This document shows positions 15,847-43,341 of a DNA stretch of 64,000 nucleotides, piece after piece (the stretch's first letter is position 1; each line of letters opens with the position of its first letter). This stretch comes from a virus. The position numbers and the translations under genes were made by a program. The notes under the pieces were generated by a model. That model saw only the letters and a program-made list of their open reading frames with translations. It was not told the origin of the DNA and made no database searches. The stretch lies in IMG/VR virus record IMGVR_UViG_3300025676_000013; one strand, 5' to 3'.

Positions 15847-18800
15847 TTATACTTCCCAAACATCTTTGAGTGTAATAATACCCCTCATATTCTCAAGGTT
15901 GCCATCGTATCTACTAGAAGTGTAAAGTAATGACGCAGGAGTTCCTAGTGTCCAAGATTGAGTTTTGAATGACCAAGAGTCGTTCAGCGTGTGTCCGTTT
16001 GGATTCTCGAACTGAATCATAATACCATTCTTGTAGTTAGTACCAGCAGTGTTATTTGCAGAGAATTCAGAATCATTCGTATTGCCCTCTGGTCCAAACA
16101 ATGCTAAGTCTACATTGACATTATTAATAGATGCGCCTTGCAATAGAACTGGGCCAGCAACAATTATGACAGGAGTCTTATATGCAGTTCCAGGATTAGT
16201 GAATTCGATAGATGAAACATTACCATTCAATCCTAATACTACCGTTCCTTCTGCCCCGTAACCAGTTGGTTCTGCGTGTTCATCTACAACAATGACTCGT
16301 GTTTCGCCAGGAACATAATCTGCCCAATCTTCGACAATCGTTCCAGCCCCGATACCATTATTAAGAGATACACTTCCTACAAAACCACTTCCGACTGATT
16401 TAGTGCTTGAGCCAACTAGGCCACCAGCATCTGAAACTACAATCATCGGTTCGTCATAGTTAGTTCCACGTGTAGTTAATACAATGTCAGTTACTACGTT
16501 ATTAAGGTCTTGAGTAAGAACTGCGCCTGAACCAGTATCTAATGGGTCATTGATAGTAAACTCAACATCGACATAATTAGAACCCGGTTTAACAACAGTT
16601 ATTGAAACAATTTCACCAATCGTAATTGGTGCAGTCCAAGTACCTGAACCAGCAACACACGTTGCTTCGTCTGAGAATGCAACATCTGAACAAGAACCTG
16701 GTACTGCTTCAGTAGTTAGAACTGGTCGAACAATTGCACCTGAACCATATAGAGTACCAGTCATATTGCCTGTGATATCATACTGCGGAGTTCCCGTAGG
16801 GTCCATCACAACGATTTTAGTTTCTGGTGAGTATCCTGTACCACGATTGGCTACACCAACAGAGGCAATAGAACGATTAGTTTCTACAGTTGCGTATGCT
16901 CCTTCTCCTGGCCCAGATACATCAACTATGTTCACTATATCAGTAAGTGTATATCCTTGTCCAGGTCTGTCTACAGCAATATTGATAATTGTTCCTGCGG
17001 CATCGACTGTAGCAAGTCCTCGAACTCCTCCACCAGTAGGTGAATTGATATCAACAAAAACGCTATTATCACGTACCCAAAGGGTTGCTTTAATGTTTGT
17101 GTCATTATCATCATAGAGGTCATACTTATCTGTGATTTCACATTCTTTAGTAATTACGTATGTGAAAACAGCATTCTGAGGTACGTCACCAGAATCAAAC
17201 ATCCCACCTGCGTGAGTAATTGTATGTGCTTGAATATCTAAGTTTGTAAACTCTAGAGTATCTCCAACATTAGCAGAGATAATAGATGGAACAAAAGCGT
17301 TGTTCTGAATATCGACACTTACTGTTTTAGCAGTAGTATCCGTATATCCTGTACCAGCGACTGATACTGCGAATCCAGCAATTCCGCCGTCAACTAGTGA
17401 CATTGAAGTTGCGGCTGCCACAGTAGGAGTTCCACCTGTAATTGCAACACTGTCAGCGACAACATAATCTGCTCCGCCATCTGTAATTGTTACAAAATCT
17501 ACACTGTCATCTTCTTTAAGAGTAACATATCCAGCCGCAAGTCCACCAGTTGAAGTGGTGAAAGTAAGCGTGATAGTAGGATTAACAATGTGAGTAGTAA
17601 CTTCCCTTGGATGAACGTGAGCACCGTTTGTTGCAGTGAATTCAAATGATTGATTGAATACGTTCCAAGATACTGTTTGGTCGTGAGTGTGACCCGCATC
17701 AACCGTAGTTGATAGAACAGGAGTTCCCGATTTAATAAGATTAACTTCAGTCTGGGTTAGATGAACTGTATGAGTATGTCCATCTCCACCTGGTACTGCG
17801 GCAACCGCTACTTCATAGTATCCAGTATATCCTGCACCAGGAGTTTCAACTTTAACTTCTTCTACCATTCCATCTTTCAATGTGAATGAAGAAACCGCTT
17901 TAGTTTCTACTGAGCCCGCTACATCAACTGCTCCCTTATCAAATGCTCGTACTGAAGTATTTGCTGACCATTTAGTACCACCGTTTGTGATTACGACATC
18001 TGAAACACCATCATCATAAACTGCGTTAAGTATTGCTCCAGTTCCTTGTTTTCCATTTGCATCAACTGTGTATGCGTAAGAATCAATAAATCCAGAGTCA
18101 TCATTGATGAACACTTTATAAATTAGTCCGTCTGATAATTCTTTTACGTATGATTCGCCTGAAATATTATACTCATAAGAACGTGTAAAATCGTCAAGTA
18201 GTGCGACAATTGGGTCAAAATATTCTTCACAAGTAGTAGGAGTATCATAACTTCCACCAGAACCATCGATATCCGATGCGTTGTGCATTGCAGTCACGCC
18301 CCAACCAGTCACTGAACTTGTAGCATCGTGACAATAAGATTGGAAAGGCTTGAATAGAACTGTATCGTAATGTTCTGCAAAGTTTCCTGTTACACCATTA
18401 TTGTAAACAGTATTACCAGTAATGTCTGTAATTTTGACATAATCTCCACTGTCAACTCCACCAAACATAAGTGCGGCATCTGCGCCACGTCTTAGAATAA
18501 GTTCTGGGTTGTCTGTGTCTGGGATAGAAGTGTTATTAAGAATAGTTAAGTCTACTGCAGGGTCACCATTAATTTCGTGTCCCGTTGCTCTGAATGTAGT
18601 AACTCCACCAACTGTGGTATTCTTGTTAATATCATATGCTTTAATCTTAGTAACTGAGGTAGAACCTGTAGCCGTTTCAATATCAAGTTTTAAGTGATGT
18701 TGGAATGGTCGTGGCTCTCCTACAATCTGCATACTTTCACCAAATGATACAATTGCACCAGATGTTGGATTATATGAAATGTGGTGAGTCTTATTAGGAC

Positions 18801-19501: not shown

Positions 19502-22500
19502 TTATGGAATCACTAGAGAAGATACTTCTCTAAATTGAGTTCCGTCTGCGTTTTCAACTATTACATCATATGTTCCAGAAGCCAGTCCACCTTGGTCATC
19601 GACCATTGCCAGATTATTAACATCTGTGAACTGGTAACTTGGACTATTTGCCACTGGTCCTGTACCCGGAGTGCTAGTAAGTTCTACCCACACTACAGTA
19701 CCATTTCCACCAGATACAAATCCTGCTCCAAGTATAAACCAATTAGACGGGTCTATCTCCGTGACCGATATGATTCTTAATGTATCTCTAACATTGAATA
19801 AGGTTGGAGCAGTTGCGGTATCTCCATCAGTATTTGTAATTATAAACTCTTGGTCTCCAAGTGGAGTTAGAGGATTGATAACAAAATTAACTTTAGTAGG
19901 CAACAAGACTGCTTGTGAAACCTGTTCGACTCCACCGAGTGTGATTGTCCATAATGGGTCAATACCATCACCAACTACTTCGACTGTATCTCCCGCCATT
20001 GCTGAGACTACTGTAGTATCCCAAGTTCCTCTTGGTGCAATACATTCTGCTTCAGTCGTGAAGTTAGCATCAGAACAATGTGCTGGAACTTCAGGAGTCC
20101 AAGTGCCTCTTGGTGCGATACAAGTTGCTTCAGTCGTATATGAAACGTCAGTACAAGTACCTGGGGTCCAAGTATTATTCGCTGAAGTCCAAGTATTATT
20201 CGCTGAAGTCCACGTACCTGCATTATTTTCACAAGATACTTGGTCATAGTAAGAACCGATAGAACAAGTTCCCTGAGCCAGACAGTTAGTTTCGTTATTG
20301 TTATATACTGGATTAGAACAAGTTCCTTCCATTATACAATCTGCTTCAGTATTATTTGCCGATGCTGAACAACTTCCTGCAGTCCAAGTTCCGAATGGTT
20401 CTACACAACCTGCTTCAGTAGTATAAATTCCATCAGAACAGAATTCTGTTGCGAGTCCCGTCCAAGCACCGTTTATTGTTTCACAATCTACAGAGTTGTA
20501 GTATAATGGATTAGAACAAGATGGGGTTATTGCCGATACTGCTCTATTACCAAACTCAATACTCATAGTGGAAATCATAATTGGTGGATTAAGAATTTCA
20601 TTAGAACGCTTGTTAACGTCATAGTAATCTTCAACTACAGATTCTCCGAATGATTCAAGAGTACGCATTCCAGCGATTGGCTGTCCAACGTAATCTGCAT
20701 TCTTCATATCAAGATGGTTGTTTGCCCATCGCTCTTCTCCTCCGATTGGAACTCCGAAGACGTTCATTGAACGTGCTAACAATAGATACTCATCAGATGA
20801 AAGATTAGGAACAGATTTTACTGAGATGTTATCCCAATAAGTGAATCCATTTCCAGTAGTTGAAAGAGTTAAGAATGCGTTACCCGTAACAGGTGCAGTA
20901 AAGATAAAGTCTTTAGAGCCGTCTGTGTCGTTCGCCGCAATCACCATACTTCCATACGCATCTGAATCAGGCGTAGGACCAATCTTAACGATTGAATCAG
21001 TAGGTCTATCAATATCGAATGATACTTTATAATTCAATTTATCAGTAACTTCAAAACTAATATGTGCAATACCTCTTGCAGAAGTACCGACACCAGATGT
21101 ATATATTTGTTGAGTATTTTGATTTACATAAGCCTCTGCACCTTGCTGAGGTGAGAATGTCCATTTCTCTTCGATTTCTCTAACAGAAACATCATCAATA
21201 CTTCCTTGAAATCCCGTATTAGTATAATAAGGACTATAATTTTCAGGTCGATTATTATCTACAGTAGATATGAAGTGAATTTTGCTATCCGCAGAACCCG
21301 CTCTAACGTGATGTGTACGTTGTCCGCTTGGAACAAGTCCAGTTGTATCAGCATCAAGAACTGGGATATCTTCTTCGTGTAATGATACAGAATTGATTAA
21401 TCCAGTTCCATTCATTCGTAGAACAAACTGGTCACTGGCTTCACCTATCAAATCGAGATGATGAATACCAGATGTAGTAATCGTTTTCTGAAGAACTCCG
21501 CCAATCAAGATTTCAATTGATGGGTTATTAGCAGATGTTCCAATCAATGCTAGTGTCTCGTGTCCTTCAGGAATAGTTTGACTAACTAGAATATAACTTC
21601 CAGTATCATAACTAATAGTGAATTCGTGAGTATATGTATCAGCGTGATAGGCATCAGTCTGAGGGAATGTTCTTGTGCGAGTTGCATCAGCCATCAACCA
21701 ATCAGCATCAACCTGTGTAATCTGGAATTGATGTGAGTGACTTCCGTTAGGACCAGGCCCAACTTGGAAAGTAAGAATATTATGTGTCTCAAGAACACAA
21801 TCTAATGTAGTCTCGTAACTAGAGTTTTTGACTAAATTATTCTCTAGAGTATATGTCATTGTTCCATTTACAGAAGAGTTAAAGTTCATCACTGCATTAG
21901 TAATTGAAACATCAACACCCGAAGCAGTCCAATTGATTTGAAGTGGGTCTACTATATCAAGATTCCAGTTAGCAATCTTATGAGTAGTATCACTACCAAG
22001 AGCAACTCTTAATCGCCCAGTCATTCCATTATCACTTGGGTCCATATCTGCTAAGGTATACTTAACTTCATATAGTTTGCCAGGAGTAAATACTACTGTC
22101 TGATTAATCTCAGTATCAGATAAAATAGTTCCGTCAAGATACGCTTTACCGTTGATTGACTGCCATCCTTCACCCATATACCAAGCATTCTGTCCAGTAA
22201 CACGTTCTCTGATTGATATATTATCAATCTTACCTATTCCCGTGTTAGACAATCTCAGTATTGCAGTATTATTAGGAGCGACTACAGTTTCAGAATAATG
22301 TCCTACTAGTGTATTTGCAGTTCCGACAATCGTTGTATCGCCCATCAAGGATGCTGTAAGTGTTCCATTCTCTGCGCCGAATACATCTTTAAACGACTCA
22401 ATAATATCATATTGAATTTCGTAAGTGATTCCGTCTTGAACTGTTCCAGTAACAAGTTGTTCGATATGAGCGGCAGTGCCATCAGTTGTATGTGCAGTAC

Positions 22501-25500
22501 CACCGTTTACTTCCCAAGAACCTGTCTCTGTCCAAACAACTTCTTTGAATGAAACATTGTCGAGTAGAATATTTGAACGCTGATTAATATCAACACTCAT
22601 ATAAACTTTAGCAAGTCCCTCGTGGTTATTTGTTACAAGGAATTGCTCTGAATTAGCACCTTTTATCATTGTAACTGGGTCAATATATTGGATAGTACCA
22701 AGTTCAATATTCATTGCTTGAATCTTAGGTAGTGCTCCAAGTCCAGTTGCTGTTACTAGATTTCCAAGTTGTAACAAGTCTGCTTGAGTTCCCGCTACTG
22801 GGAACGCATTTGCAGGTTCTGGTTGTACTTGGAAGTAATCATTTCCTGTTCCGTTGTCTATTTGAATTTTATCTTTAATGTGTAATGGAGTGTACATATT
22901 TTCTTGACCGTGATGATAATAAACTACGATATCATCTCCAGCATTAACTACTGGAATGTCAATAATATTGAATGTACCAACCATAGATGCGTGCCAACCA
23001 CACTGATAATACAGTGTGTCTGGTGCAACTGAAGGTACAGTAAATTCTACAATCTCATACTTAGGAACTCCTGCGGCATCTAGTCCGAATTTAGAACCTG
23101 GGTCAGTTTGAACCCCTGCTCCTTCTTCTCCTCTAGAACCCGTGACACCCAATAGATACTCACCGAAGTAAGCGCCTGGGGTAAAGTGACTTCCGTCATC
23201 AGTAGTTATATAGAATGGATGACCAGGTGCGTTGACTCTAAATCTATAAGTAGCACCTCTGTATAAGTTAAGAGTTCTGTTTGTTCCCTCAATCATTCCT
23301 TCTTTATCAAATTTGTATAGTCCGCCATCATCTTCTACTGCGTAGTAGAGATTAGTTTCTCCTGGCGGTACGAATGGCCCAAATCCAGATACTCCATCAG
23401 CACCTGTTAGACCGAAATCTTCTGGGATTTTCCAAGTAAATTCTTTCGAGAAGTTACCAATCCATTGTGACACTCTCCATTGTGCTAGTCCAACATCTTC
23501 ATTTGGATTTAATGCGGTACATACTGAGTAGTCATCGACTCCATTGTAATACCAACCAGTTACATCTAGTTCTTCACACCATCCACTCAATCCCATACAA
23601 ACTGGGAATGGTTGGTCTGAAACCCAAGTTCCTGGGTTATCCTCAAGAGATACAAAGTCGTTTAGAGCCCCAGTTTCAATGGTTAATCCGTGACTTGCGT
23701 TTTTATTAACACAATGATAGCCCTCATTTGGTTCGCCTAAGCCTCGTGTCATACCCGCTTGAACTAGGTTATCCCAGCCTCCACCAGGTATTGCTTTAAT
23801 ACCAGCGGCGTGCATATACATATCTTGCATTACACCAGTGAATGGGTCAGGAGCAGTAACGTGTCCTGAAGAACTCCAAGCATTATTTACAAATGTATAT
23901 TTACCACCACGGAATAAGTCGAATCCTCCTGCTGTTCCTTCGTTACCACCGAATGCTTCGTGTTCTGCAATGTCTCTTTGATAAGGATAGTAAGAGATGT
24001 TTGACATATCGTGCCAAGACCAGAACCAAGGAGAATCTTGTGCTCCTTCAACTGTAGTCTGGCCAGGGTCAGCGGCTGTAATAGTAGATTGTGTATCGAC
24101 AATAATTTCAAATCCGTCTGTGGGTCCGTAACCATCGCCAAGTGCAACAACTGTATGGTTCATCATTGCGCCAGGTAATTCAGTAGGCGTATATGGTTGT
24201 GGTCCAGATGGTAACTGAACAACATCACCAACTGATAATGCGTGATTGACTGATTTAACAGTTCTTGGTCGAGACCATAGAACTTCTACACCAGAGATGA
24301 ACGGGTCACCAACGTGGTTAGTTAAATCTCGTTCAACTTCGTATCTAAAGGATGCCATATCAGCAACAACTTCATAACTCTCAATAACATTGAAGAAAGT
24401 TGGAGTAGTTCCTGGCGCATTCTCTAGAGGATAAATTACTGTTTCAGTTAATGCAAAGTGGTCCCAATCGATAACATAGTCAACAAAGTAATTTGTATTA
24501 CCGTGATGAATTCCGTTATATACGTTAGTATAGTGTATCTTGTCGCCTGCTTTAAGTTGGTGTCCGTCTGATTCAATACCACGTTCTTTCTTAACATATC
24601 CTGCGATATCTGTGAAAGGCGTTGCGATTGTAGAAGGATTCAAATCATCGCCACCTAAAGCGAAATCATATTTTCCAACTGTGAATTGACTTGACCCAGG
24701 ATAGTATACTCTATCAAAATCGTGAATATGTTGGTCAATCGAAATAATTAAATATGTGTCATTTGCAGGGTCGATACATCCAAATTCTACTGTATGGAAA
24801 TGCTGTGGGTCAGAAGTTCCGTAATTGGAAGTTCCAATCTTAGTTGCTCCGCCCGTATGACTCCAAGTTCCATCAGTGTCTTGTGTGACTCCAGTTAATG
24901 GACTTGCTTTTAGTGTCGCTTCGTCTGTTATGTCAAGGAGCAATTGATGATAATGACCAAAGTTAGTCAATTCAATATTAGTTCCGCCTTCGATAACATA
25001 GTATTCAGACATACCGTGAGTATGTGAGCCAGTCATTCCAACTATATACATTCCACCAGCACCATTGTTTAGTGCAGGGTCCCAGTTATATGTAACAGAG
25101 TGAGCGTGAGGAGAGTTATCTCCAGAGCCAGTTCCGTCTGTCGTTGACATTGAAATTACGTTTGTGCCTGTTTGAATAGTAGCGTATTCGGCAGTTGTGA
25201 GTTCACCAGTGTGTATGTGTCCGATAACATTAACGTCATCAAAGAATACATCGACTCGTGCATCACCTTTTTGTACTGCGGTGATAATATAATCTTCCCA
25301 TTTACGCTCTCCAACTCCAACTACTGCTCCGCCACCCGTTGTGCTTCCGCCTGAACCATAACCAGTACCGCCTTGTTCTAGAGTAAGTGAAGTAATACTA
25401 CCATCAACTGAGCCTGTTGCTAAAGCATTGACTGTTGGTGAACCACCAACAAATGTAACAGCAGGTGGGCCAGTATATTCAGAACCCGCATTCGTTATTG

Positions 25501-33189: not shown

Positions 33190-34200
33190 TTAGAATTCTA
33201 CTACGAGTTTCAAATCCTCAATCTGGTCAGATGCACGAGTAATAGCACGCCTGTTCTCAAGATAAATCAACTGTCCACTATCGCTTTCTAAACTTACGTC
33301 TGCATCAGCATATACGGATGCTTGGGCTTTCGTTCCGCCACCAGCAAGTTCTGGATTACGCAAGAGTCCGATTTGTCGAAAGTCATCGTTCTCTGGGAAT
33401 CCGTCTGAAGTCTCAAGTCTAACGTGAATCAATCCGTGGTGAGTTTTCGCTGTAAATATAGAATCTACATCACCGAAATCGGCCTGCTCAGACCCTGCAA
33501 GAACTCCTGTACCTGAAATAACTGGCATCCAGTCATTGGTAGTAGAGTTAATAATGTCGTTCAATTCTAGTTTATATAAGAATGTCCACGTATAGTTGTC
33601 AGATGTAGTAATCGCTTGAGCAACTAGTCCAGCGGCATCTCCAGTAAAGCCAGTTGGCTCTTCAGAAGCACCAGTAGGTAACCAAAGTCCACCTAAAGTA
33701 CCTTCACAAGTTGTTCGTGAAACAGCAGTTCCGCCATCAAAGACTCCACCAATATAGCATTTTCCGCCAGATGGTTCGCCTGTACACATATAAACTCGAT
33801 ATTCAGAATTCATCACAATACTGTGACTTCCGATTTTTGAAACAAAAGAACGGCCAGGTTCATCAATTCCTGTGATGCCGTTTGCGGCATCTCCGTCAAA
33901 TGCGATAGTATCACCTGTTTCCCAGTTAATACGTGGAAGCACGGGTGAGATATCATCATTCTGAATTCGCTTGGTACCAACAATGTCAGTCCAATATTGT
34001 GATTCATCCTCATCAAGAGGGTCAGGTAGAGTAAAGTTACCTGAACTTTCGTCATTTCCTTGAGCATCATTAGGCCAAGCGTCATTTCGCCCAAACCCTA
34101 GATACAGGAAGTTGTCGTCAACAGAACCAGTAGTTTTGAACTGGTCGATGAAAACCATCAAGTTCTGTGTTCTGAATTTACTGGTTACAATTGCACCCAT
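33190..34200 (-). CDS. gp8: Baseplate wedge subunit
   Basis: LYLGFGRNDAWP, YRVYMC, TSDNYTWTFLY, FRQIGLLRNP, GQLIYLENR..ITRASDQIEDLKLVVEF. Confidence 0.9.
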   Translation of the reverse strand: MGAIVTSKFRTQNLMVFIDQFKTTGSVDDNFLYLGFGRNDAWPNDAQGNDESSGNFTLPDPLDEDESQYWTDIVGTKRIQNDDISPVLPRINWETGDTIAFDGDAANGITGIDEPGRSFVSKIGSHSIVMNSEYRVYMCTGEPSGGKCYIGGVFDGGTAVSRTTCEGTLGGLWLPTGASEEPTGFTGDAAGLVAQAITTSDNYTWTFLYKLELNDIINSTTNDWMPVISGTGVLAGSEQADFGDVDSIFTAKTHHGLIHVRLETSDGFPENDDFRQIGLLRNPELAGGGTKAQASVYADADVSLESDSGQLIYLENRRAITRASDQIEDLKLVVEF

Positions 34201-34290: not shown

Positions 34291-37200
34291 TTATGCCGGT
34301 ACTGGCCATACGTTGCTATCGTCTACAGTAGTAGAGTGGACGTGGTCGCCTGCTCCAGAGCCCTGTGTGTTTTGTGACCACTGACCACCAATTGGAACAC
34401 TTCCCAAATATGATATTGTATCGTGGTTGTCATAGTCACTTGTTTGTGATATAATGTTATAAGTAGAACCATTCCACTCTAATACTAATTCGTGAGTGTA
34501 TACGGCCGCGTGTGTACTATCTCTCTGTGGTGTAGTTACATAAGTTCCACCAATCAAGGATGTATAATCTGCAACACTTATCCAGTAATCGTGGTCGTGG
34601 AATCCACCAGTTAGAGAGAATTTATGCACATATGTAGATGTTCCTGGTATAATATCCCATTGTGAAATACCAGCAACTACAAATGTTCCCTTTGCTCCCA
34701 TATTGGGATTAAATTTTATCGTATATCCGTGATAGTGGGAACTGGCTCCGTTTGGAGAATCAAAGAATATAATACCATAGTTGGCATTCTGAGCATTAAT
34801 CAAATCATTTGCTTGTGCCAAAGTAATTGGTTCACACGTTCTTCCGACATTAACTCCCGCTGAATCCAAAGAGCATCCATCATAAAGCAGGTGGTCGTGA
34901 CTTCCGATACCAGCAATAAACGATGGTTGCATCTGAACAATGGGCGGGTTGTTTGCCTGAAGGACATTATTTACATAAGTTTTTCTTTCCGTTAAGTCTT
35001 CCACTTCGGAAGTTGTTTGACTTGTCGTAACTTCAGACGTAATAACTGGGTCACCAACCGATGTTTCAGTACCATAATCTGAATAGTATATAATATCAGT
35101 CGTGGTCGTTGTAATCTGGACCGTTGACGTTGTTGTCGTTGTGATTAAATCACTATATGTTACGATAATAGTTGTATCACCAGTCGCAGGCGTATCTGGA
35201 TACGTTGTTGTGACTGGTAGTAATTCGGTTGAAGCCTGCGTAACAACAACACTCGGTGCCGCAGAAAGAACTTCATCAGTTGATGTAGTCTTCGTTATAT
35301 ATATGCTACCACCAGTTTGCTGTGGTATTGCAACTAGATTTGGATTCCAGTCAATTGTCAAGTTATGCCAGTGAAGTCCTTCAGCCGCATTCTCAACTAC
35401 AGATACATAATATTTAGTAGGGTCTTGAAGTGAATCTTCAATGCCACCTTTAATCCAAGTCACTGACCAATCAGCATAGAATATATTATAATTAGTATCC
35501 CATTTAATTCTGTACTCGTGAAAGTGAGCACCCTCAATTGAATCGTAAATAGTAACACTATCTACAACACCATCAATCAGTTGCATACCTTGGTCAATCG
35601 TCATTCCGTGAGCGTAAGAAATCTGTCCAGTCAAAGCCCCTTCTGCAAATGGTCCCACAACTGTATCATTATGAAAGTGAGGGTGAGAACCACCTGGATA
35701 AGGATATCCAGGAGAAGCAAATGTCGGTAGAATTTCCATCATCTCATTATAACCTGGTCGTGAAAACAGATTAGAGATGTTCGTTGGATGTGCGTGTGAC
35801 CTTGGGTCTGCGGAATAGAATTGATGTCCGTCAGATGATTCCCATTTCTCAGTATCTAACGCAACGAAACTTAATGTATTTGGGTCGTATGTAATTGTGA
35901 TTCCGTGATAATGGTCTCCGCCTGAGATAGATGTATATGTTTTTACTTCAGTCACTTCACCATTAATCAAATCAGTTGCTTGATTATCATCTAATGGTAA
36001 TGCTTGTCTGCCAGTGTGTGTTCCGAGAGTGTCTAATGTTGTTCCGTTAAATGCGTGTAGATGGTCTGGTTCAGAGCCTTCTAATTTATGCCAATCGTGT
36101 GCATTTGATAATGTAACATCAGGAGCAGTATACAATGGTGTACCATTCCAACCAAGATGGGTCGTTATACCATTAACTAAAAGGGTATGCTCGTGAGTTC
36201 GTAGATGTGTATCTACTGCTTCCCATTCTCCAGTACCGTTTTCATCCCACATCTCAGCCATTTCGTCTGCAACAAATTGTTGCGTAGAAAGATTCCACAT
36301 AATTTTATATACGTGATAATGTTGATGCTGGCCAGAATCTTCAATAGAAGAATAAACATAAAATGCGTTTACTACTCCATTAGCAAGTTCTTCTGCTTGT
36401 ATTCTCGTAATCGGTACAGCCGTTCTACCATCATTAGCACCAAATGTATCTAGTGTCTCACTATTGAAATAGTGGATGTGAGCGTTCTCGCCATATTCGT
36501 TTGCTCCAAGTATCTCTACTACGGGAGCAGTCTCAATATAAAATGTTCCGTCATCATCGTCATCATCGACAGCAAGATAAGGCGTATCAGAGCCTGTGTC
36601 GTATGGTTCCCAAACTAGAGTTAGAGGATTCAAATGCCATCCAGCAGATGAACCAAGAAGAATATTTTCATCTACTATTCCAGTCCACGAAGTAATTACA
36701 GGATGCAAGTGAGAGACAGGAGTATTATAAGTCCATATAGGGAAGAAAGCATCCCAGTCAGTCATTTCAATATCAGATATCTCAGTTGCAGAGAATAATT
36801 CTGTGTTAATGTCGTATACTACTTTATATCCGTGAACGTGAGCCGTTTCAGAAGCAGGGATTTGTGAAGATGCACCCGTTTCTGTAGAGGAATCATATGT
36901 ATCAGTTAGTTTGTATATATCACAATTCTGTGGGCCAGTTCCTTGATAACTATCAATACCAATTCTTGTAGCCATATAAAGTTCGCCATTAGTGTCTTCA
37001 CCTAATGTCAATATAGATTGGTCGTGAGTTGTTAAGTTCAATACAGATGTTGCAGGGTCCCAGAAAGATAAATTCTTTCTTGTATATCCTACATCGCCAT
37101 TGTATTCGATAAATGTGAATACATCGTGGTTCTCCATATTCGTTTGTGCTATCAGATTCCAAGTATTGAAAGCCGCATTCCATATAATGGAGAATGTGTG

Positions 37201-40200
37201 AGTATAACTTTCAGCGTGAACCGTATCACTCTGAACAACAACAATTGGTGTTCCAGGATTCGCTTGAGCCATCGCAACTTGACTCGGAGTTAATATAGCC
37301 TCGTGACTATGATTTGCTCCATTGATTGCATTAGGAGTTATTGTGAAGTGTGCAGAAAGTCCATCAGGATTTTCTTCTAGTGAAAAGAGATGACCAGTAG
37401 TACCAGCCCAACTCGTACTCCAATCTCCGAATATGTATTTGCCTTGAAGTCCAGTTAAGTCACTTCCCCTATAGATGAATCCACCTAAGATAGAAATACC
37501 AGTTCCGTGACTGTACTCGTGAATAGGTGATTTTAAATCAAGAAGAAATGCTTGAGTATTTGCATAGCCTTGGTCTAATGCCATTTGGTCAATAGTTGCT
37601 TGGTCTTCTTCAAAGTAATGATATGCTTCCATTACTCTCCAACCATAGTTGCCGCCCTTTTCGATAATGTTTACTTCTTCAAATTTATTTTGTCCAACAT
37701 CAGCCGCCCATAGTTTACCATCTGGAGCAAAAGAGAATCTCCAAGGATTTCTTAATCCGTATGCCCATATCTCTTCTCTAAACATTGCACCCGCAGTACC
37801 GTGTGGTTTTGCATTTACACCAGTGAAGGGGTTATCGGAAGGTATGGAATAAGGTTTATTATTAACTGTGTCTGGTGCGACATCAATTCTAAGAATTGTG
37901 CCCAATATGTTAGTAGGGTTCTGTGCATTACCATATACTCCGTGTCCGCCGTGACCGCTAGAACTCGAAGTATCTCCCGCATTTCCGCCGTCACCGAATC
38001 CGATATAGAGATAACCATCTGGGCCAAATACTAATTGACCACCGTTATGATTCATATCAGGTTGTGGCTGTGTGATTAAAATTCGTTCAGTAGTAATATC
38101 AACTGTCTCTGCCGCAACGTCAGCCGTGAACTCAGCAATGATTGAAGTTGAAAGAGGATATCCGTATGAGCCAGTAGATGGACCTTGCTCTGTCATATAA
38201 TAGACATACAAGAGTCCGTTTGTTGCGTAATCTGGATGGAATGCAAGTCCTAGAGCGCCACGTTCATCATATGCACCGAATGGCCCGACTCCGATAGTCA
38301 GATTAAGAGAAGTGTAGTCGAAAAATAATGATTTGACACCAGACGTAGTATCCATCAAGTGAATGATTCCAGATTGGTCTACAATACAGATTTTATCTGG
38401 GTCCATCGGATACGCTACAATAGTCGCAATGTCTGTGCCTGTACCCATCTTAACATCCCCTAGTAAATCTCCAGTATCACCAGAGCCAGGAACTTGTTGA
38501 ATATAGTTAGATGAATATAATTCTACCCAGTCTACATTAGGTACTAGCGTAGCAGGGAAAGTCTGTGCGTGTTGGAATGTAAATGATGCTTCACCAATTG
38601 CAGTAGCAACCGTGGCATCATCAAGTTCATTGAATACATTCTGTCCGAGATTCATTGTGTTACCAGAATAATCAACACCGTCAATTAAACTAGGGTCAAC
38701 CACAAGTTCTGGTTTATAGTTATAACATATCCACGTAGTAACTGGCGTATATCTAAATCCGTGCGTACAAGGATTACCCATAAAGTCAGTATTCATTTCC
38801 CAGTCTGATTCGTATGTGACTAGGTACTCGTGATAATGTGCAGAGGTAATTCCATTTGAATCGGCTACCGTACCGCCTTGGAAGACGCCATTTTCATCTG
38901 TCTCAGGGACCCCGTTGGTAGTTATTCCGATACTATCGTAAAGAGTTACGTCTGTGATATCTCCGTCAATTAATTTTCTTGCATCGGCTCTTGATAGAGG
39001 GTCAGATACACGACCACGTTGTCTGTCTACAATTTGACCATCTACAAATCTATGAACGTGACCCGTTGCTTCAGGCAAGAATGCAGTCGTATGAACATCT
39101 GCAAGGAATTCTGGAATTTCAAAAGCATCAGAATTCATTAATGCTCTTGCTTGAGAATAACTTAGTCCGTGAGCCGTTGCTTCTTTTCCGTGAACCATTA
39201 AATTAGGTATTGCACTTCCATCAAAACTATGAACGTGAAACGCTGCCGCTCCAACACTCATCAATGGAAGTTCAAGTCCTTTAGTAAGACTTGTAGATAC
39301 TAGTGGTGCGAAACCATTCTTTCTTCCGTGGGAATGGATTACATTAGGGTTATCAAACGCCTGTATCTGAACCGCATCAATAACGTCATTTGTATTCCCG
39401 TATACTTTTTTAACTAGTGTGTCTTCTCGACCACTCTCGAATGCGCCGTAACTCTTTTCAGGAGCGTATTCGGCTTCTTGCATAAACGATTCAACCCATT
39501 CAACAACTCTAGAAAGATGTTTGAATACGGACAATTCATAAACGTCACAAGAAATCATTCTACCGTCTGTGGTATTCTCTAGATTATCCTCAATGCCTAA
39601 TTCAGTAACAGAAGGTGGGAACTCTTCAATAGGTAGAACTCGGAGAAGATTAGTAAATTCAAATACAACCTTCTCAGGCCAAGCATTAATCTGGTTCTTG
39701 ATTTCATCACGGAGAATATTAATTTGATAGAGTTTCTCTGTAAGTTTGGTACCAATAGTCTTGATTTCATTTTTATCAGTTACTATATCAACCCCTACGT
39801 GTTCACCAGGAGCACCCCAATTATCAGGAGTTACTAAGGCAGCCCTTGAATCGAGATTACCCATCATTTCAATGATATATTCGTCAAAGCCTTTCTCAAT
39901 GAAGACTCCAAATCCAGTATGAGCCCTTCCGACTGAACCGTGTTGTTCGCTCTCTTGGTCCCAGATATCAACCGCGACATCAAGATAAGAGAATATCGCA
40001 ATAATCATCTTGACGTAATCGGTAGGTAATTCGATTACCAAATCAACTGTAGACCTAAACGAGAACTCAGCAAATAATTTCAGTCCAACAGGGTGAACTA
40101 GTTTTTTAAGAACTTCTCTATACGACTGAATAGGTACATCACTTCGGATAACATAAGAGAAATCTTGGTAGTAGTCATTATCTTGGAGTTTTCTGTCAGA

Positions 40201-41562
40201 AGACAGGAAGCCGCCAGAGTCAAGCCAGTAACCATTTGTTTTCCAAACGGCCGTCTTGACATTAGGTTGAGTCTCGATATTAACAAGAGCATCACACTCT
40301 TCTCGTGTCAAAGGAGGACTACTTACATTTAATAGTATATTGTGTTCTACGTCTTGAAGGGTCTTAGTAATATCGACTACTGGGTACCACGAAAGAAACG
40401 CACTCTCTCCGAAATAGGGGCTCGCCTTGTCTAACCCATCCGGGTGCAACGCCGCCACACAATCAACCTCAGTAGTAAACGTATGAAGAACTGGCCAATC
40501 CGTAGAGATACTACAGAATGATTGGCTCGGGTTTTCCCAATAGTTGTTCGCCGCCACGTTAAATAATTTCTCACCTAACTCAAACTCACCAGTTACTTCT
40601 AATAGGTTAAGTTTTGTCCAGTCAGTATCAGTACCATCAATGGTTGCTGTAGCACCAGAGGTTAATCCTTTTATTAGTGAACCACCCTCTCTGTGTACCC
40701 CTGCCGCGTGTAGGTAATGAACTTCATTTGGATGTCCACTAATATTAATCCATTTATCTGTCCATTTGTGCCCATTGACAATACATTCACCCTCTGTCCG
40801 AATACCGTCAGAGATGATTAGTGCTTTATAGGGTATAGTGCCAGATGTACCAACGTCTTCCCAGATTTCTTCGTCTTTAATGAATACGCCATTTACTTCG
40901 GTTAATAGGAGTCGCTCGTAGTCTGTAGTAGAGACTGATTCGTCCATATCCACGAAAGCCGTTGCGCCGCTAATTTGGCCACGGATTTTTTTGTTGTAGA
41001 TAGACCGTACCGTCTCGGCCACGTGTGAGTTATTCGTGTTGCCGAAATAGGGCGATGCAGAATCTAGTGTGGCTTGGTCAGTTAGTACCGTAATCCATTG
41101 TGGCTCATACCATACACTGCCAGACGCCTTCATCATCCATTGCTTTGGATACATCGTATCAACGTCTGTATTAAAGTCTCGTCTGAATAGAAACTCTAGG
41201 GCAGAAGTAGTACCTTTCTGTCTATAGACAGGTTGGATATTCTTAGCAAGGAAGGACTTGTCAGTAGTCTCTACTGTTGGGTCTATTGAGGTGTGTGGTG
41301 TACCGTGGAGATACTTAGCCTCGAATTCTGGTATGAAATTATCTAGTGCGTGGTCAACATCAATGTTCTGAATCAAATCAGTTATTTGATTGTACTCGCC
41401 TAGTTCCCCATTAACACCAGTCTCTCGTTCCAAGTATTCAAAATACTTGCGAAGGAAAGTGATGAACATAGGATGGTCTTCCCGTACATAGTCGGGCACC
41501 ATTCTCTCAACAAAGACCGATAGGAACTTAGCAGGAGATTTAGTAAATTTATCGTTAGCCAT
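34291..41562 (-). CDS. gp7: Baseplate wedge initiator (gp7-like) with a very long C-terminal extension carrying HxH modules and a glucose/sorbosone dehydrogenase-type beta-propeller
   Basis: VPDYVREDHPMFITFLRKYFEYLE, YRQKGT, GYWLDSGGFLSSDRKLQDNDYYQDFSYVIRS..LKKLVHPVGLK; between gp6 and gp8. Confidence 0.78.
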   Translation of the reverse strand: MANDKFTKSPAKFLSVFVERMVPDYVREDHPMFITFLRKYFEYLERETGVNGELGEYNQITDLIQNIDVDHALDNFIPEFEAKYLHGTPHTSIDPTVETTDKSFLAKNIQPVYRQKGTTSALEFLFRRDFNTDVDTMYPKQWMMKASGSVWYEPQWITVLTDQATLDSASPYFGNTNNSHVAETVRSIYNKKIRGQISGATAFVDMDESVSTTDYERLLLTEVNGVFIKDEEIWEDVGTSGTIPYKALIISDGIRTEGECIVNGHKWTDKWINISGHPNEVHYLHAAGVHREGGSLIKGLTSGATATIDGTDTDWTKLNLLEVTGEFELGEKLFNVAANNYWENPSQSFCSISTDWPVLHTFTTEVDCVAALHPDGLDKASPYFGESAFLSWYPVVDITKTLQDVEHNILLNVSSPPLTREECDALVNIETQPNVKTAVWKTNGYWLDSGGFLSSDRKLQDNDYYQDFSYVIRSDVPIQSYREVLKKLVHPVGLKLFAEFSFRSTVDLVIELPTDYVKMIIAIFSYLDVAVDIWDQESEQHGSVGRAHTGFGVFIEKGFDEYIIEMMGNLDSRAALVTPDNWGAPGEHVGVDIVTDKNEIKTIGTKLTEKLYQINILRDEIKNQINAWPEKVVFEFTNLLRVLPIEEFPPSVTELGIEDNLENTTDGRMISCDVYELSVFKHLSRVVEWVESFMQEAEYAPEKSYGAFESGREDTLVKKVYGNTNDVIDAVQIQAFDNPNVIHSHGRKNGFAPLVSTSLTKGLELPLMSVGAAAFHVHSFDGSAIPNLMVHGKEATAHGLSYSQARALMNSDAFEIPEFLADVHTTAFLPEATGHVHRFVDGQIVDRQRGRVSDPLSRADARKLIDGDITDVTLYDSIGITTNGVPETDENGVFQGGTVADSNGITSAHYHEYLVTYESDWEMNTDFMGNPCTHGFRYTPVTTWICYNYKPELVVDPSLIDGVDYSGNTMNLGQNVFNELDDATVATAIGEASFTFQHAQTFPATLVPNVDWVELYSSNYIQQVPGSGDTGDLLGDVKMGTGTDIATIVAYPMDPDKICIVDQSGIIHLMDTTSGVKSLFFDYTSLNLTIGVGPFGAYDERGALGLAFHPDYATNGLLYVYYMTEQGPSTGSYGYPLSTSIIAEFTADVAAETVDITTERILITQPQPDMNHNGGQLVFGPDGYLYIGFGDGGNAGDTSSSSGHGGHGVYGNAQNPTNILGTILRIDVAPDTVNNKPYSIPSDNPFTGVNAKPHGTAGAMFREEIWAYGLRNPWRFSFAPDGKLWAADVGQNKFEEVNIIEKGGNYGWRVMEAYHYFEEDQATIDQMALDQGYANTQAFLLDLKSPIHEYSHGTGISILGGFIYRGSDLTGLQGKYIFGDWSTSWAGTTGHLFSLEENPDGLSAHFTITPNAINGANHSHEAILTPSQVAMAQANPGTPIVVVQSDTVHAESYTHTFSIIWNAAFNTWNLIAQTNMENHDVFTFIEYNGDVGYTRKNLSFWDPATSVLNLTTHDQSILTLGEDTNGELYMATRIGIDSYQGTGPQNCDIYKLTDTYDSSTETGASSQIPASETAHVHGYKVVYDINTELFSATEISDIEMTDWDAFFPIWTYNTPVSHLHPVITSWTGIVDENILLGSSAGWHLNPLTLVWEPYDTGSDTPYLAVDDDDDDGTFYIETAPVVEILGANEYGENAHIHYFNSETLDTFGANDGRTAVPITRIQAEELANGVVNAFYVYSSIEDSGQHQHYHVYKIMWNLSTQQFVADEMAEMWDENGTGEWEAVDTHLRTHEHTLLVNGITTHLGWNGTPLYTAPDVTLSNAHDWHKLEGSEPDHLHAFNGTTLDTLGTHTGRQALPLDDNQATDLINGEVTEVKTYTSISGGDHYHGITITYDPNTLSFVALDTEKWESSDGHQFYSADPRSHAHPTNISNLFSRPGYNEMMEILPTFASPGYPYPGGSHPHFHNDTVVGPFAEGALTGQISYAHGMTIDQGMQLIDGVVDSVTIYDSIEGAHFHEYRIKWDTNYNIFYADWSVTWIKGGIEDSLQDPTKYYVSVVENAAEGLHWHNLTIDWNPNLVAIPQQTGGSIYITKTTSTDEVLSAAPSVVVTQASTELLPVTTTYPDTPATGDTTIIVTYSDLITTTTTSTVQITTTTTDIIYYSDYGTETSVGDPVITSEVTTSQTTSEVEDLTERKTYVNNVLQANNPPIVQMQPSFIAGIGSHDHLLYDGCSLDSAGVNVGRTCEPITLAQANDLINAQNANYGIIFFDSPNGASSHYHGYTIKFNPNMGAKGTFVVAGISQWDIIPGTSTYVHKFSLTGGFHDHDYWISVADYTSLIGGTYVTTPQRDSTHAAVYTHELVLEWNGSTYNIISQTSDYDNHDTISYLGSVPIGGQWSQNTQGSGAGDHVHSTTVDDSNVWPVPA

Positions 41563-41580: not shown

Positions 41581-43341
41581 TCAATTGATACTCTGCATCG
41601 TTACACTACTAGTATTTAGTACGAGTAGATTACTTCGGATTGCCGTAATATCATTTGATTGCGGAGTAGCGTACAAACTTATTACTGAATTAGTGTCTAA
41701 CACGGGTCTAAATCCAATTAACTCTATGATTCCATTGGTATAGTCGATGGTACCTTGCTCTGTATTGAGGAATTGCTCATTAACAATGTCGTATAATAGA
41801 ATATTGCCTTGGCCATCGTCTAATAGAGCATACTGGGACCCCGTATCTGTATTACCGAATACACTTGACACGGCAGTACCAGGTGTGATAGCATTATCAT
41901 ACTTAAAGATATAGTTACCAACGGTATTGGATGCTTGAATAAAAAACTTCTTATAAAACTTGACAGACGTTAAATTATTTGATATACTTTCATCAGCAAT
42001 GTCAATAGTATTACCAAGGCGGGAATACCTCATTGTCACTTTAAATGCAGATATCTCTTCCTCAAAGAAGGCCTGAATGTCTGCTATTACTTTACTCTGT
42101 ATCTCACCAGCACTCAAACTGGTTAAGACAGGGTTATACTTGACTGTGCTAATAACATCAATGTAGGTGTACTCTGGTGCTGTTATAATAGGGTTTATGG
42201 CTAACATATTGTATTTACTCAATATATCAGTCGTTAATTTTTGTTTGGTCAATGGTGACAACTCTAGGCCGTGCTTAGGCTTGATACAAATGAATACTGC
42301 ACCATACTGAGGAGGGTCATTATCTTCACCACCCCATACGGCTATTGAATCAATATTAGGATACTTCTCTATTAATATATTCTTATAGTCCTCTGCGGTC
42401 ACTGCCCTATCTTGTCTCTCATAGGCTCTTGGTGCTGTAAGTTTAATGTTTTCAGTGGTCTCTGCACTCGCACCTAGAGAAGAGATGTCCACAGTGTCCA
42501 CCGTCACGTGGGAGTCGGTGTAGACGTTGGCTATAGTCGATTCAAGTGCGAACACTTGCTCATTAATAGTAGAGGTATAGTTACCTGGAGCACCCACCGT
42601 AGATAGGTAAGTTACTTTAACTGATTGACCATCAAGAGGTATTTTGCCAAAGATGCCATTGCCGAAGTATATCTCACTAACTCCATCAAGGCCTTCCTGA
42701 ACAAAGAATGAATTACTCGTAGGGGTCAATTCGCTTAATACTTTGTTGACTTCCCAAGGCTTGTCATTAACAAGCATAGTAATAGTAGAGCGGTCACAGG
42801 TAGCATCATTAATAAAGAAGGACTGGGCTTCCGCAGTAGCGTCATATGTCCATTCAAGGCCTTTTAATGTCCCTTGATGCAACTTAATTTCGCCAGCGAA
42901 CTCTCCACCCTCGTCTGCAAACACATTAACAGTAGATAAATTGGTAAATGGAAGAGGTACACCAGTAATATTAGATACAAATTGAGTACCTTTCTCTACA
43001 ATAATGTAACTTGGGTCATATCCAGTCGTATCAAACTCTAGTTTAACAATAGATTCAGCGGCTGTAACGCTCTTAGGTATATATCCAATGCTCTTAGCGT
43101 GACTCACAACACTATTTCGGAGCGTTGCGGTATCTAAAAATGCCTCATTGACTGCCATATTCGTATGGAAACCCATATAGTGTGTAGTGTATGCCATTAC
43201 ATCCAGCATTACACTCATACCAGAGCCGTCAAAGTCATAGTCCAAGAACTCAGTCTGACCCTTCATAAAGGTCTTGATGTTCTTCTTAATGCCATCGAAC
43301 TCTAGGTCCGATAAGTTTAATGCTTTCTTATTCTGTGCCAT
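41581..43341 (-). CDS. gp6: Baseplate wedge subunit
   Basis: LEFDGIKKNI, DYDFDGSGMSVMLDVMAYTTHY, FLDTATLRNSVVSHAK, RAVTAEDY, WGGEDNDPPQYG. Confidence 0.96.
   Translation of the reverse strand: MAQNKKALNLSDLEFDGIKKNIKTFMKGQTEFLDYDFDGSGMSVMLDVMAYTTHYMGFHTNMAVNEAFLDTATLRNSVVSHAKSIGYIPKSVTAAESIVKLEFDTTGYDPSYIIVEKGTQFVSNITGVPLPFTNLSTVNVFADEGGEFAGEIKLHQGTLKGLEWTYDATAEAQSFFINDATCDRSTITMLVNDKPWEVNKVLSELTPTSNSFFVQEGLDGVSEIYFGNGIFGKIPLDGQSVKVTYLSTVGAPGNYTSTINEQVFALESTIANVYTDSHVTVDTVDISSLGASAETTENIKLTAPRAYERQDRAVTAEDYKNILIEKYPNIDSIAVWGGEDNDPPQYGAVFICIKPKHGLELSPLTKQKLTTDILSKYNMLAINPIITAPEYTYIDVISTVKYNPVLTSLSAGEIQSKVIADIQAFFEEEISAFKVTMRYSRLGNTIDIADESISNNLTSVKFYKKFFIQASNTVGNYIFKYDNAITPGTAVSSVFGNTDTGSQYALLDDGQGNILLYDIVNEQFLNTEQGTIDYTNGIIELIGFRPVLDTNSVISLYATPQSNDITAIRSNLLVLNTSSVTMQSIN

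What the first reader, a model, noticed from the sequence alone, without database searches (positions are those of the whole stretch)
34291..39400. Repeated His-pair (HxH) modules: about 22 motifs in gp7, 7 in the 2570-aa protein and 3 in the 1194-aa protein
Seen: type A module HxH...(L/I)T/S..(Q/E)A..L..G.....DS....HxH.Y.I.(W/Y)...HxH (e.g. AHIHYF..ITRIQAEELANG..HYHVYKIMW; DHLHAF..LDDNQATDLING..DHYHGITITY; SHDHLL..ITLAQANDLIN..SHYHGYTIKF), also at 24700-25230 and 17600-17790. Counts were made by eye. The units are protein-level repeats with diverged DNA. Inference: each module folds around one or more transition-metal ions, giving tens to hundreds of sites per virion given baseplate symmetry. 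They differ from the trimeric gp37-type HxH needle.
Basis: partly seen in the sequence, partly recalled or inferred. Interest (0 to 1): 0.75.

Follow-up and report, generated by a model that had tools for sequence, protein, structure and literature searches.

The report
Uncatalogued three-His-pair domain in phage tails
The repeated His-x-His motifs are real and mark a small, previously unnamed protein domain with three strictly conserved histidine pairs, found eight times in this marine phage's baseplate protein gp7, in other phage tail fibres and in secreted bacterial lipoproteins. It most likely cages a metal ion within a single chain, but metal binding is not shown.

Summary
Observation confirmed. 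The counts are 22, 7 and 3 HxH in the 2423-, 2570- and 1194-aa proteins, against 3.5, 1.7 and 0.4 expected.

The motifs sit in 12 copies of one module of 65-120 aa. Each copy has three HxH-led strands and one short helix. A 'type B' variant has five His plus an acidic residue.

In 33 gp7 orthologues (48-95% identity), 30 of 32 motif His are invariant. The figures are 0 of 9 for other His and 20% for other residues.

A profile search of 1.84 billion proteins found only 86 carriers. They are phage tail-fibre proteins and Myxococcota lipoproteins with Tat-like (twin-arginine) signals.

No Pfam, NCBIfam, PHROG or PDB sequence match exists. Two AlphaFold models (pLDDT 82 and 73) have no fold match (best Z 4.6).

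In two of the three motifs the His pairs share the strand face of the core hydrophobic residues. This fits a buried single-chain histidine cage, analogous to the three-chain HxH-Fe cages of T4 gp37 and P2 gpV.

Other notes describe different HxH fibre elements.

The parts
34291..41562 (-). gp7-like baseplate wedge protein, 2423 aa. It has a T4 gp7-like N-terminal part and a C-terminal extension of about 1700 aa that carries the modules.
   Evidence: Pfam Baseplate_wedge 31.9 bits (cut-off 27) at aa 453-500. phrog_17744 baseplate wedge E 2.5e-45. It lies between a gp6 homologue (41581-43341, phrog_219 E 4e-153) and a gp8-like gene (33190-34200).
39064..39336 (-). Degenerate leading module (aa 743-833) with HSH743 and HVH776. 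Its second motif has decayed to a single His.
   Evidence: for positions. The A1 profile gives only a marginal match. These His are kept in 28-31 of the 31 orthologues that cover this part.
38737..39075 (-). Module 1, type A with a long insertion (aa 830-942): HVH835, HYH909, H934.
   Evidence: Profile domain E 5e-16. H835, H909, H911 and H934 are kept in 32 of 32 aligned orthologues.
37426..38265 (-). Glucose/sorbosone dehydrogenase-type beta-propeller (Pfam-matched part, aa 1100-1379). It sits between module 1 and module 2 and is not itself an HxH module.
   Evidence: PF07995 E 7e-33. The orthologues carry the same domain.
37105..37326 (-). Module 2, type B (aa 1413-1486): HSH1418, H1449, H1455 (in YTH), H1479-D1480.
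   Evidence: Profile domain E 2.6e-22. It is also found at 4.5e-07 by a profile built without any gp7 sequence. All five His are invariant in 33 of 33.
36682..36963 (-). Module 3, partial (aa 1534-1627): only the second and third motifs, HVH1575 and HLH1618.
   Evidence: Profile positions 27-69, E 0.002. All four His are invariant in 33 of 33.
36163..36495 (-). Module 4, type A (aa 1690-1800): HIH1695, HYH1748, HEH1790.
   Evidence: Profile E 3e-18. AlphaFold model, pLDDT mostly 84-89. All six His are invariant.
35767..36078 (-). Module 5, type A (aa 1829-1932): HLH1834, HYH1884, HAH1923.
   Evidence: Profile E 3e-19. AlphaFold pLDDT 88-93. All six His are invariant.
35338..35700 (-). Module 6, type A (aa 1955-2075): HPHFH1960-64, HFH2013, HWH2064.
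   Evidence: Profile E 7e-18. The motif His are invariant.
34618..34914 (-). Module 7, type A (aa 2217-2315): HDH2222 and HYH2276. Its third motif, HDH2322, doubles as the first motif of module 8.
   Evidence: Profile E 1.4e-15. The His are invariant.
34402..34614 (-). Module 8, type B (aa 2317-2387): HDH2322, H2351, H2357, H2380-D.
   Evidence: Profile E 2.8e-20. The gp7-free profile gives E 1.5e-09. The His are invariant.
34336..34344 (-). Terminal HVH2407, 15 residues from the C-terminus.
   Evidence: Invariant in 33 of 33.
24995..25234 (-). 2570-aa protein, compact module a (aa 661-740): HIH, HAH, HTH.
   Evidence: Profile E 5e-19. The motifs are kept in orthologue P0038.
24701..24970 (-). 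2570-aa protein, module b (aa 749-838): HYH, HFH, HIH.
   Evidence: Profile E 1.5e-14. Kept in P0038.
21530..21754 (-). 2570-aa protein, type B module (aa 1821-1895): HSH, H..YTH, GHE.
   Evidence: Profile E 2.5e-21. The gp7-free profile gives E 5e-06.
17587..17793 (-). 1194-aa protein, compact canonical module (aa 547-615): HTH552, HTH581, HVH605.
   Evidence: Profile E 2.5e-17. All six His are invariant in 18 orthologues down to 43% identity. AlphaFold model pLDDT 72.9.

Best explanation
The HxH motifs mark a distinct small alpha/beta domain of about 65-70 aa in compact form and up to about 120 aa with insertions. Its order of elements is strand, G-HxH-strand, short helix (LT..[QE]A..L..G), strand, HxH-strand (HxH.v.I.W), strand, HxH-strand. 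I propose that the three HxH-led strands converge at one end of the hydrophobic core. Six imidazoles (five plus a carboxylate in type B) would then enclose one transition-metal ion. This would be a single-chain version of the three-chain HxH histidine cage that holds Fe(II) in T4 gp37, P2 gpV and R-pyocin fibres. The metal would act as a folding nucleus and stabiliser for small extracellular domains strung along the periphery of the baseplate (eight per gp7) and along two fibre-like giants (three and one). That gives roughly 50 to somewhat over 100 sites per virion if copy numbers resemble T4. Shown: the module, its repetition, the invariance of its His, its distribution and its lack of a catalogued relative. 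Inferred: convergence of the His, metal binding, the metal (Fe(II) by analogy; Zn, Ni or Cu are equally possible), and the structural role.
For: 1. In gp7 aa 1560-2423 across 33 orthologues (48-95% identical), 30 of 32 motif His and 3 of 3 type B extra His are invariant. The comparison figures are 0 of 9 for other His and 162 of 820 (20%) for other residues. The six His of the 1194-aa protein's module are invariant in 18 orthologues.
2. Among 56 distant carriers (about 20% identical), the only invariant or near-invariant columns are His.
3. In a 77-sequence module alignment the His lie at offsets 0 and +2. Offsets +4, +6 and +8 are 81-100% hydrophobic and the odd offsets are polar. The pairs of motifs 1 and 2 therefore point to the core side of their strands, and each is preceded by Gly, Ser or Ala.
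4. The bacterial branch carries twin-arginine-like signals plus a lipobox (TAT_signal_seq is sub-threshold at 14.6 bits). Tat export typically serves proteins that fold or take up cofactors before export (established knowledge).
5. AlphaFold folds the modules as self-contained monomeric domains with consistent secondary structure: pLDDT 81.8 for two gp7 modules and 72.9 for the compact one.
6. Three HxH giving an octahedral His6-Fe(II) cage is an established unit of phage spikes and fibres (10.1101/2023.02.25.529910; PMC6116203).
7. The eight-module architecture is kept in all orthologues.
Against: No metal was measured. No coordinates were available, so His-His distances in the models are unknown. 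The third HxH lies in the least confident part of the compact model (pLDDT 56-64) and aligns less cleanly (second His 62%). In some tandem arrays one HxH appears to serve two neighbouring modules (gp7 HDH2322; P0047), which a strict one-cage-per-module picture does not explain. If the strand-helix-strand unit is a classical parallel crossover, motifs 1 and 2 could lie at opposite ends of the sheet. No fold match to any metal site was found.
Confidence: 0.58

Rival explanations
1. Inter-chain cages as in gp37. The module would be a segment of a three-chain fibre, and each HxH would meet its two symmetry mates on the axis. That would give three metal ions per trimeric module rather than one per chain.
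For: All experimentally solved phage HxH cages are intermolecular. Several carriers look like trimeric fibres: P0074 has a T7-type tail-fibre N-terminus, and other hits carry collagen or Mtd_N domains. Language-model features of a type A module lean weakly towards PF03335 (score 0.82, below the level the tool calls meaningful).
Against: gp7 is a single-copy wedge subunit in T4, not a trimer (established knowledge). The bacterial Tat-like lipoproteins with tandem copies are unlikely fibres. The three motifs sit in different sequence contexts and the module contains a helix. AlphaFold gives a confident globular monomer. There is no PF03335 or PF07484 match.
Confidence: 0.14
2. No metal is involved. 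The His pairs would form a conserved hydrogen-bond or aromatic ladder, a pH-sensitive latch, or a direct ligand-binding (for example glycan or receptor) surface of an adhesion domain.
For: The modules sit in distal, host-facing parts of baseplate and fibre proteins, next to lectin-type domains in some relatives (Laminin_G_3). Nothing here measures metal.
Against: Six invariant His in about 70 residues, with nothing else invariant across relatives about 20% identical, is the usual signature of a metal site. The His of motifs 1 and 2 face the core side of the strands, not the solvent side. The bacterial relatives carry Tat-like signals.
Confidence: 0.15
3. Redox or catalytic metal centres. The modules would be Cu or Fe sites that work with the PQQ-type dehydrogenase propeller in gp7 and the cupredoxin-like domains of the two giants, acting as an electron-transfer or oxidative device at the host surface.
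For: A type B module is inserted in the propeller region (aa 1413-1486, just after the Pfam match at 1100-1379). JGI names orthologues of the 1194-aa protein 'plastocyanin'. Two distant carriers touch Cupredoxin_1. Blue copper proteins accept electrons from quinoprotein dehydrogenases (established knowledge).
Against: Most carriers have the module without any redox partner. A fully His-saturated buried site leaves no open coordination position for catalysis. No cupredoxin Pfam match reached E 0.01 in the window's own proteins.
Confidence: 0.08
4. A chance or compositional effect of His-rich sequence.
For: gp7 has 3.8% His, which is above average.
Against: No shuffle out of 5000 reached the observed count. 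The excess is confined to the one-residue gap. Profile matches reach E 1e-15 to 1e-22, and the motifs are conserved in orthologues.
Confidence: 0.01

Closest known systems
Intermolecular HxH histidine cage of phage fibres and spikes (T4 gp37 needle, PDB 2XGF; P2 gpV apex, 3QR7; R1/R2 pyocin fibre shaft; T4 gp12)
   Same: These are His-x-His dyads on beta strands in phage tail proteins, where three HxH supply six His for one buried octahedral ion. The motif is far more conserved than its surroundings. A folding or stabilising role has been proposed.
   Different: There the three HxH are symmetry copies from three chains of a fibre. Here three non-equivalent HxH lie in one chain of a small alpha/beta domain with a helix. 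There is no PF03335 or PF07484 match. The module occurs in gp7, which is not a trimer in T4, and in bacterial lipoproteins. Metal binding is proven there and only inferred here.
YmaF family (Pfam PF12788), small uncharacterised proteins of Bacillota
   Same: Language-model features of the compact module score 0.90 against YmaF clusters. Three of 56 distant carriers touch the YmaF model weakly (best E 0.004).
   Different: No window module matches PF12788 even at E 10. The model finds nothing in five Myxococcota genomes that hold the bacterial form. The function of YmaF is itself unknown, so this is a lead, not a relationship.
Predicted iron-binding tail fibre of Alteromonas phage R22Y, and the 'Ferrojan/Trojan Horse' idea of iron in marine phage tails (PMC11705849)
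   Same: It is a marine phage whose conserved HxH motifs in tail proteins are read as iron sites. It raises the same ecological question of phage-bound metal.
   Different: R22Y was modelled as a gp37-like trimer with six inter-chain sites. The present module is a different single-chain domain, present in far higher copy number per protein.
T4 gp7 baseplate wedge subunit
   Same: The N-terminal part and the gene order gp6-gp7-gp8 match.
   Different: The extension of about 1700 aa, with eight HxH modules and a dehydrogenase-type propeller, found no match in any GenBank phage record by BLAST.

Membership tests
gp37-type HxH needle / Phage_fiber repeat (PF03335) and tail Collar (PF07484) | Match to the Pfam repeat models | tested here: not met
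   No match at E 0.01 in the three whole proteins, or at E 10 in seven isolated modules. There is only a sub-threshold language-model resemblance of 0.82.
gp37-type HxH needle / Phage_fiber repeat (PF03335) and tail Collar (PF07484) | HxH contributed by three symmetry-related chains of a trimeric fibre | not testable with these tools
   Only monomer prediction is available, and it returns no coordinates. Indirect evidence (gp7 context, lipoprotein relatives, confident monomer models) argues against it.
gp37-type HxH needle / Phage_fiber repeat (PF03335) and tail Collar (PF07484) | Fe(II) bound octahedrally by six His | not testable with these tools
   This needs ICP-MS, X-ray fluorescence or an experimental structure.
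YmaF (PF12788) | Score above the Pfam gathering threshold (27 bits) | tested here: not met
   No window module matches. Three of 56 relatives match only weakly, best E 0.0041. No match in five Myxococcota genomes that carry the bacterial form.
T4 gp7 baseplate wedge (PF23786) | Pfam match above threshold, and position between the gp6 and gp8 homologues | tested here: met
   31.9 bits against a cut-off of 27. phrog_17744 E 2.5e-45. Neighbours are phrog_219 (gp6) and phrog_438/977 (wedge subunit).
Any solved fold (PDB) | Structural match of a module model | tested here: inconclusive
   Foldseek gave no hit at E 0.001 for either model. VIA-align wide gave best Z 4.2 and 4.6, below the level the tool regards as meaningful. 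BFVD gave none. PDB sequence profiles gave only a spurious designed Kelch protein.
Tat-exported lipoproteins (bacterial branch of the module family only) | Twin-arginine motif followed by a hydrophobic stretch and a lipobox Cys | tested here: inconclusive
   The (S/T)RRxFL-like motif and lipobox are seen by pattern in at least 13 full-length bacterial carriers. The NCBIfam TAT_signal_seq score is 14.6 bits against a cut-off of 16.7 for P0071.

The most novel reading that the evidence does not exclude
The module is a new fold: a self-contained, single-chain histidine cage. Phages and Myxococcota would use it as a metal-stapled building block for extracellular proteins. This group of ocean phages would then carry of the order of 50-100 or more transition-metal ions per virion on its baseplate and fibres. 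These could be wired to the PQQ-type dehydrogenase propeller and cupredoxin-like domains as a redox-active host-contact apparatus.
Probability: 0.12. Interest if true: 0.85.

Novelty: new variant of a known kind. Interest (0 to 1): 0.6.

Why it matters
HxH histidine cages are so far known only as three-chain devices in phage spikes and fibres. A single-chain domain built on the same chemistry would be a new structural solution and a new, easily recognised domain family. It would give a name to parts of many unannotated tail-fibre proteins and Myxococcota lipoproteins.

These phages come from ocean metagenomes, including Tara Oceans samples. Eight or more sites per baseplate protein would raise the estimated metal load per virion well above that of T4. 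This bears directly on the debated idea that marine phage tails hold a meaningful share of colloidal iron.

The module is small (about 70 aa), so the claim is cheap to test.

Tried and rejected
1. GenBank phages. Megablast and tblastn of the gp7 C-terminal part, and tblastn of two distant carriers, found no match to the module. The phage itself is only about 35% identical in gp6 to Pelagibacter, Methylophilales and cyano-myoviruses.
2. Family libraries. Pfam, NCBIfam and PHROGs hold no family for the module.
3. PDB by sequence profile. The only hit was a designed Kelch protein with repeated HTH, judged spurious.
4. Fold searches of both models (Foldseek PDB, VIA-align wide, BFVD). Nothing rose above background.
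5. The YmaF lead from the ESM Atlas. Tested and not upheld as membership. I could not obtain YmaF sequences for a profile-profile comparison.
6. The search for related loci with the module alignment failed because no stretch was conserved enough.
7. No whole genome is held for the window.
8. Gene neighbourhoods of the Myxococcota homologues. One lies beside secA and one beside an ABC-F-like ATPase (my reading of the ORF's N-terminal sequence), with no shared metal-related neighbour. I did not pursue this because spurious ORFs in high-GC DNA made it laborious.
9. Measuring His-His distances was impossible, because model coordinates are not exposed.
Full report
**Setting.** The window is the tail and baseplate region of an uncultured T4-like marine myovirus.
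- The gp6 homologue (41581-43341) is only about 35% identical to those of Pelagibacter, Methylophilales and cyanobacterial myoviruses.
- The 2423-aa ORF at 34291-41562 (minus strand) lies between the gp6 homologue and a gp8-like gene. It matches the baseplate wedge families (Pfam PF23786, 31.9 bits; phrog_17744, E 2.5e-45).
- Only its N-terminal third resembles gp7. The rest contains a glucose/sorbosone-dehydrogenase-type propeller (aa 1100-1379, E 7e-33) and the histidine motifs.
- Neither megablast nor tblastn finds this C-terminal part in 50,697 GenBank phage records.

- HxH occurs 22, 7 and 3 times in the 2423-, 2570- and 1194-aa proteins, exactly as reported.
- Shuffling gives means of 3.49, 1.67 and 0.42. 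None of 5000 gp7 shuffles exceeded 11.
- Only the one-residue gap is enriched: 22, against 0-5 for gaps of 0 and 2-5 residues.
- DNA-level repetition is limited to 19-29-nt patches at the His codons. Two neighbouring modules are 37% identical as protein (E 9e-18).

**One module, not two.**
- Eleven segments align into a 72-position core (A1). Its order is small residue, HxH, strand, LT..(Q/E)A..L..G helix, strand, HxH.v.I.(W/Y) strand, strand, HxH.
It replaces the second by H-x5-H (H...YTH) and the third by (E/D/N)-x-H-(D/E). It aligns in register with type A.
- A profile built only from the 1194-aa protein's module and unrelated outside proteins still recognises several copies. These are the gp7 type B copies (1.5e-09, 4.5e-07), one type A copy at 9.4e-07 and two others at about 0.002-0.004, and the copies in the 2570-aa protein. 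This removes circularity.
- Profile scanning of all ORFs in the window finds eight modules in gp7 (plus a degenerate leading one), three in the 2570-aa protein and one in the 1194-aa protein. No other ORF carries it.

**Conservation.** A word-index search returned 32 metagenomic gp7 orthologues of 48-95% identity, from contigs of up to about 150 kb. All keep seven or eight modules. Invariance over gp7 aa 1560-2423:

| Residue class | Invariant in 33 of 33 |
|---|---|
| Motif His | 30 of 32 |
| Type B extra His | 3 of 3 |
| Other His | 0 of 9 |
| Non-His residues | 162 of 820 (20%) |

- The two motif exceptions are the redundant first His of the overlapping HQHYH and HPHFH runs.
- The six His of the 1194-aa protein's module are invariant in 18 orthologues down to 43% identity. 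Some of these come from Tara Oceans samples.

**Family.** hmmsearch of the module profile against 1.84 billion representatives gave 86 proteins at E 0.001 or better. Beyond the orthologues, about 80 diverse proteins carry one to three compact copies of about 65-70 aa. Among 56 of them the only invariant or near-invariant columns are His. They fall into two groups.
- *Phage tail group.* These proteins have no signal peptide and carry the HxH.v.I.W form.
  - They co-occur with Mtd_N, collagen, Laminin_G_3 and DUF2341.
  - One carrier has a T7-type fibre N-terminus (P0074).
  - Another carrier lies in a tail gene block. P0047 has three C-terminal copies and lies four genes downstream of a tail tube protein gene. 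Its sequence is also recorded on a 427-kb contig.
- *Bacterial group.* These are small proteins with twin-arginine-like signals and a lipobox, with repeats ending in Cys.
  - One lies beside secA on a bacterial contig.
  - A relative lies in a Polyangiales genome.
  - 33 of 301 sampled genomes of that phylum have a match.
- No Pfam, NCBIfam or PHROG model covers the module. No PDB sequence is related.

**Structure.**
- AlphaFold with a 29-sequence orthologue alignment gave pLDDT 81.8 for gp7 aa 1685-1932, which spans two type A modules.
- A 77-sequence alignment of diverse carriers gave pLDDT 72.9 for the compact module.
- Both models show the same order of elements: strand, HxH-strand, eight-residue helix, strand, HxH-led long hairpin, then the third HxH. 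The third HxH lies in the less confident tail.
- Foldseek against the PDB and BFVD found nothing at E 0.001. Exhaustive VIA alignment gave best Z 4.2 and 4.6. No solved relative is evident, but such negatives do not prove a new fold.
- Coordinates are not exposed. The key question, whether the six His meet, could not be answered directly.

**An indirect structural argument.** In the 77-sequence alignment the His of motifs 1 and 2 occupy offsets 0 and +2.
- Offsets +4, +6 and +8 are hydrophobic in 81-100% of sequences.
- Offsets +1, +3, +5 and +7 are mostly Thr or Ser.
- Position -1 is Gly, Ser or Ala.
- On a beta strand this puts both imidazoles on the core-facing side, at the edge of the hydrophobic core. 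That is what a buried cage requires and what a solvent-exposed binding surface would not show.

**Mechanism proposed.** Three HxH supplying six ligands to one buried octahedral Fe(II) is the established 'histidine cage' of P2 gpV, phi92, R-pyocin spikes and fibres, and T4 gp37. There it is always built from three symmetry-related chains and is thought to aid folding and register.
- The present module offers three HxH from one chain.
- gp7 is a single-copy wedge subunit in T4.
- Tandem copies occur in bacterial lipoproteins with Tat-like signals. The Tat pathway typically serves proteins that fold or bind cofactors before export (established knowledge).

I therefore favour an intramolecular cage that stabilises small extracellular domains (confidence about 0.58). 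The metal is unknown. Fe(II) follows by analogy, but Zn, Ni or Cu cannot be excluded.

With six gp7 per baseplate as in T4, gp7 alone would give 48 sites. The two giants would add more, depending on their unknown copy number.

**Unexplained.**
- HDH2322 serves as the third motif of module 7 and the first motif of module 8. In P0047 adjacent modules likewise overlap on one HxH.
- The third motif is less regular than the first two.
- Module 3 lacks a first motif.
- These points could mean strand exchange between neighbouring modules, or sites with fewer than six His.

**Relation to known work.** The idea that HxH motifs in marine phage tails bind iron is in the literature (PMC11705849). It concerns gp37-like trimers.
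- The ESM Atlas pointed to YmaF (0.90) and to an unnamed Myxococcota cluster (0.93).
- YmaF membership failed direct tests.
- Earlier notes of this scan on other DNA describe different HxH fibre elements. A sequence look-up found nothing like this module elsewhere.

**Verdict.** This is a real, strongly constrained and uncatalogued domain family. It is probably a single-chain variant of a known phage metal-binding principle. It is novel as a domain and as an architecture, but its central biochemical claim is still untested.

Noticed in passing
window 37426-38265 (gp7 aa 1100-1379), with module 2 at 37105-37326: A glucose/sorbosone (PQQ-type) dehydrogenase propeller is embedded in gp7 and kept in all 32 orthologues. 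A type B HxH module follows directly after the Pfam-matched part, apparently inside the last blade.
   Followed up: partly
window 15847-19431 (1194-aa protein, about aa 700-760) and 19502-27214 (2570-aa protein): There are cupredoxin-like segments: C-x2-H-x2-M near aa 1290 of the 2570-aa protein, and H736/H740 conserved in the 1194-aa protein. JGI names two orthologues of the 1194-aa protein 'plastocyanin'. No Pfam cupredoxin match reached E 0.01.
   Followed up: partly
window about 34960-35260 (gp7 aa 2100-2200) and about 36556-36573 (aa 1664-1669): A Thr/Ser-rich low-complexity linker separates modules 6 and 7, and a run of six Asp precedes module 4. They look like flexible spacers between domains.
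   Followed up: no
L001, L005, L010; proteins P0043, P0054, P0072, P0107: Myxococcota chromosomes encode small lipoproteins with Tat-like signals, made of two to three copies of a Cys-terminated, circularly shifted form of the module (NHGH ... KTYSI.G..HDH.VTIT ... HxH.VTV.C). They were found in 33 of 301 sampled genomes of the phylum. Their function is unknown.
   Followed up: partly
L004 8001-12428 (P0047): A 1475-aa protein ends in three tandem modules that overlap by one shared HxH each. It sits in a block of unannotated genes downstream of a tail tube protein gene, and is also recorded on a 427-kb contig.
   Followed up: partly
window 12314-13054 and 14058-14810: Two paralogous genes match tail-fibre-assembly families (phrog_9740, phrog_4912). 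They alternate with two paralogues of phrog_4205, downstream of the 1194-aa protein. This suggests chaperone and fibre-tip pairs.
   Followed up: no
proteins P0004-P0035, P0122-P0140: The phage belongs to a coherent, uncultured marine lineage (contigs of 145-153 kb; ENA, JGI and Tara sources) with no close GenBank phage. Some orthologues of gp7 are 2700-3200 aa long because of extra N-terminal sequence, not extra modules.
   Followed up: partly
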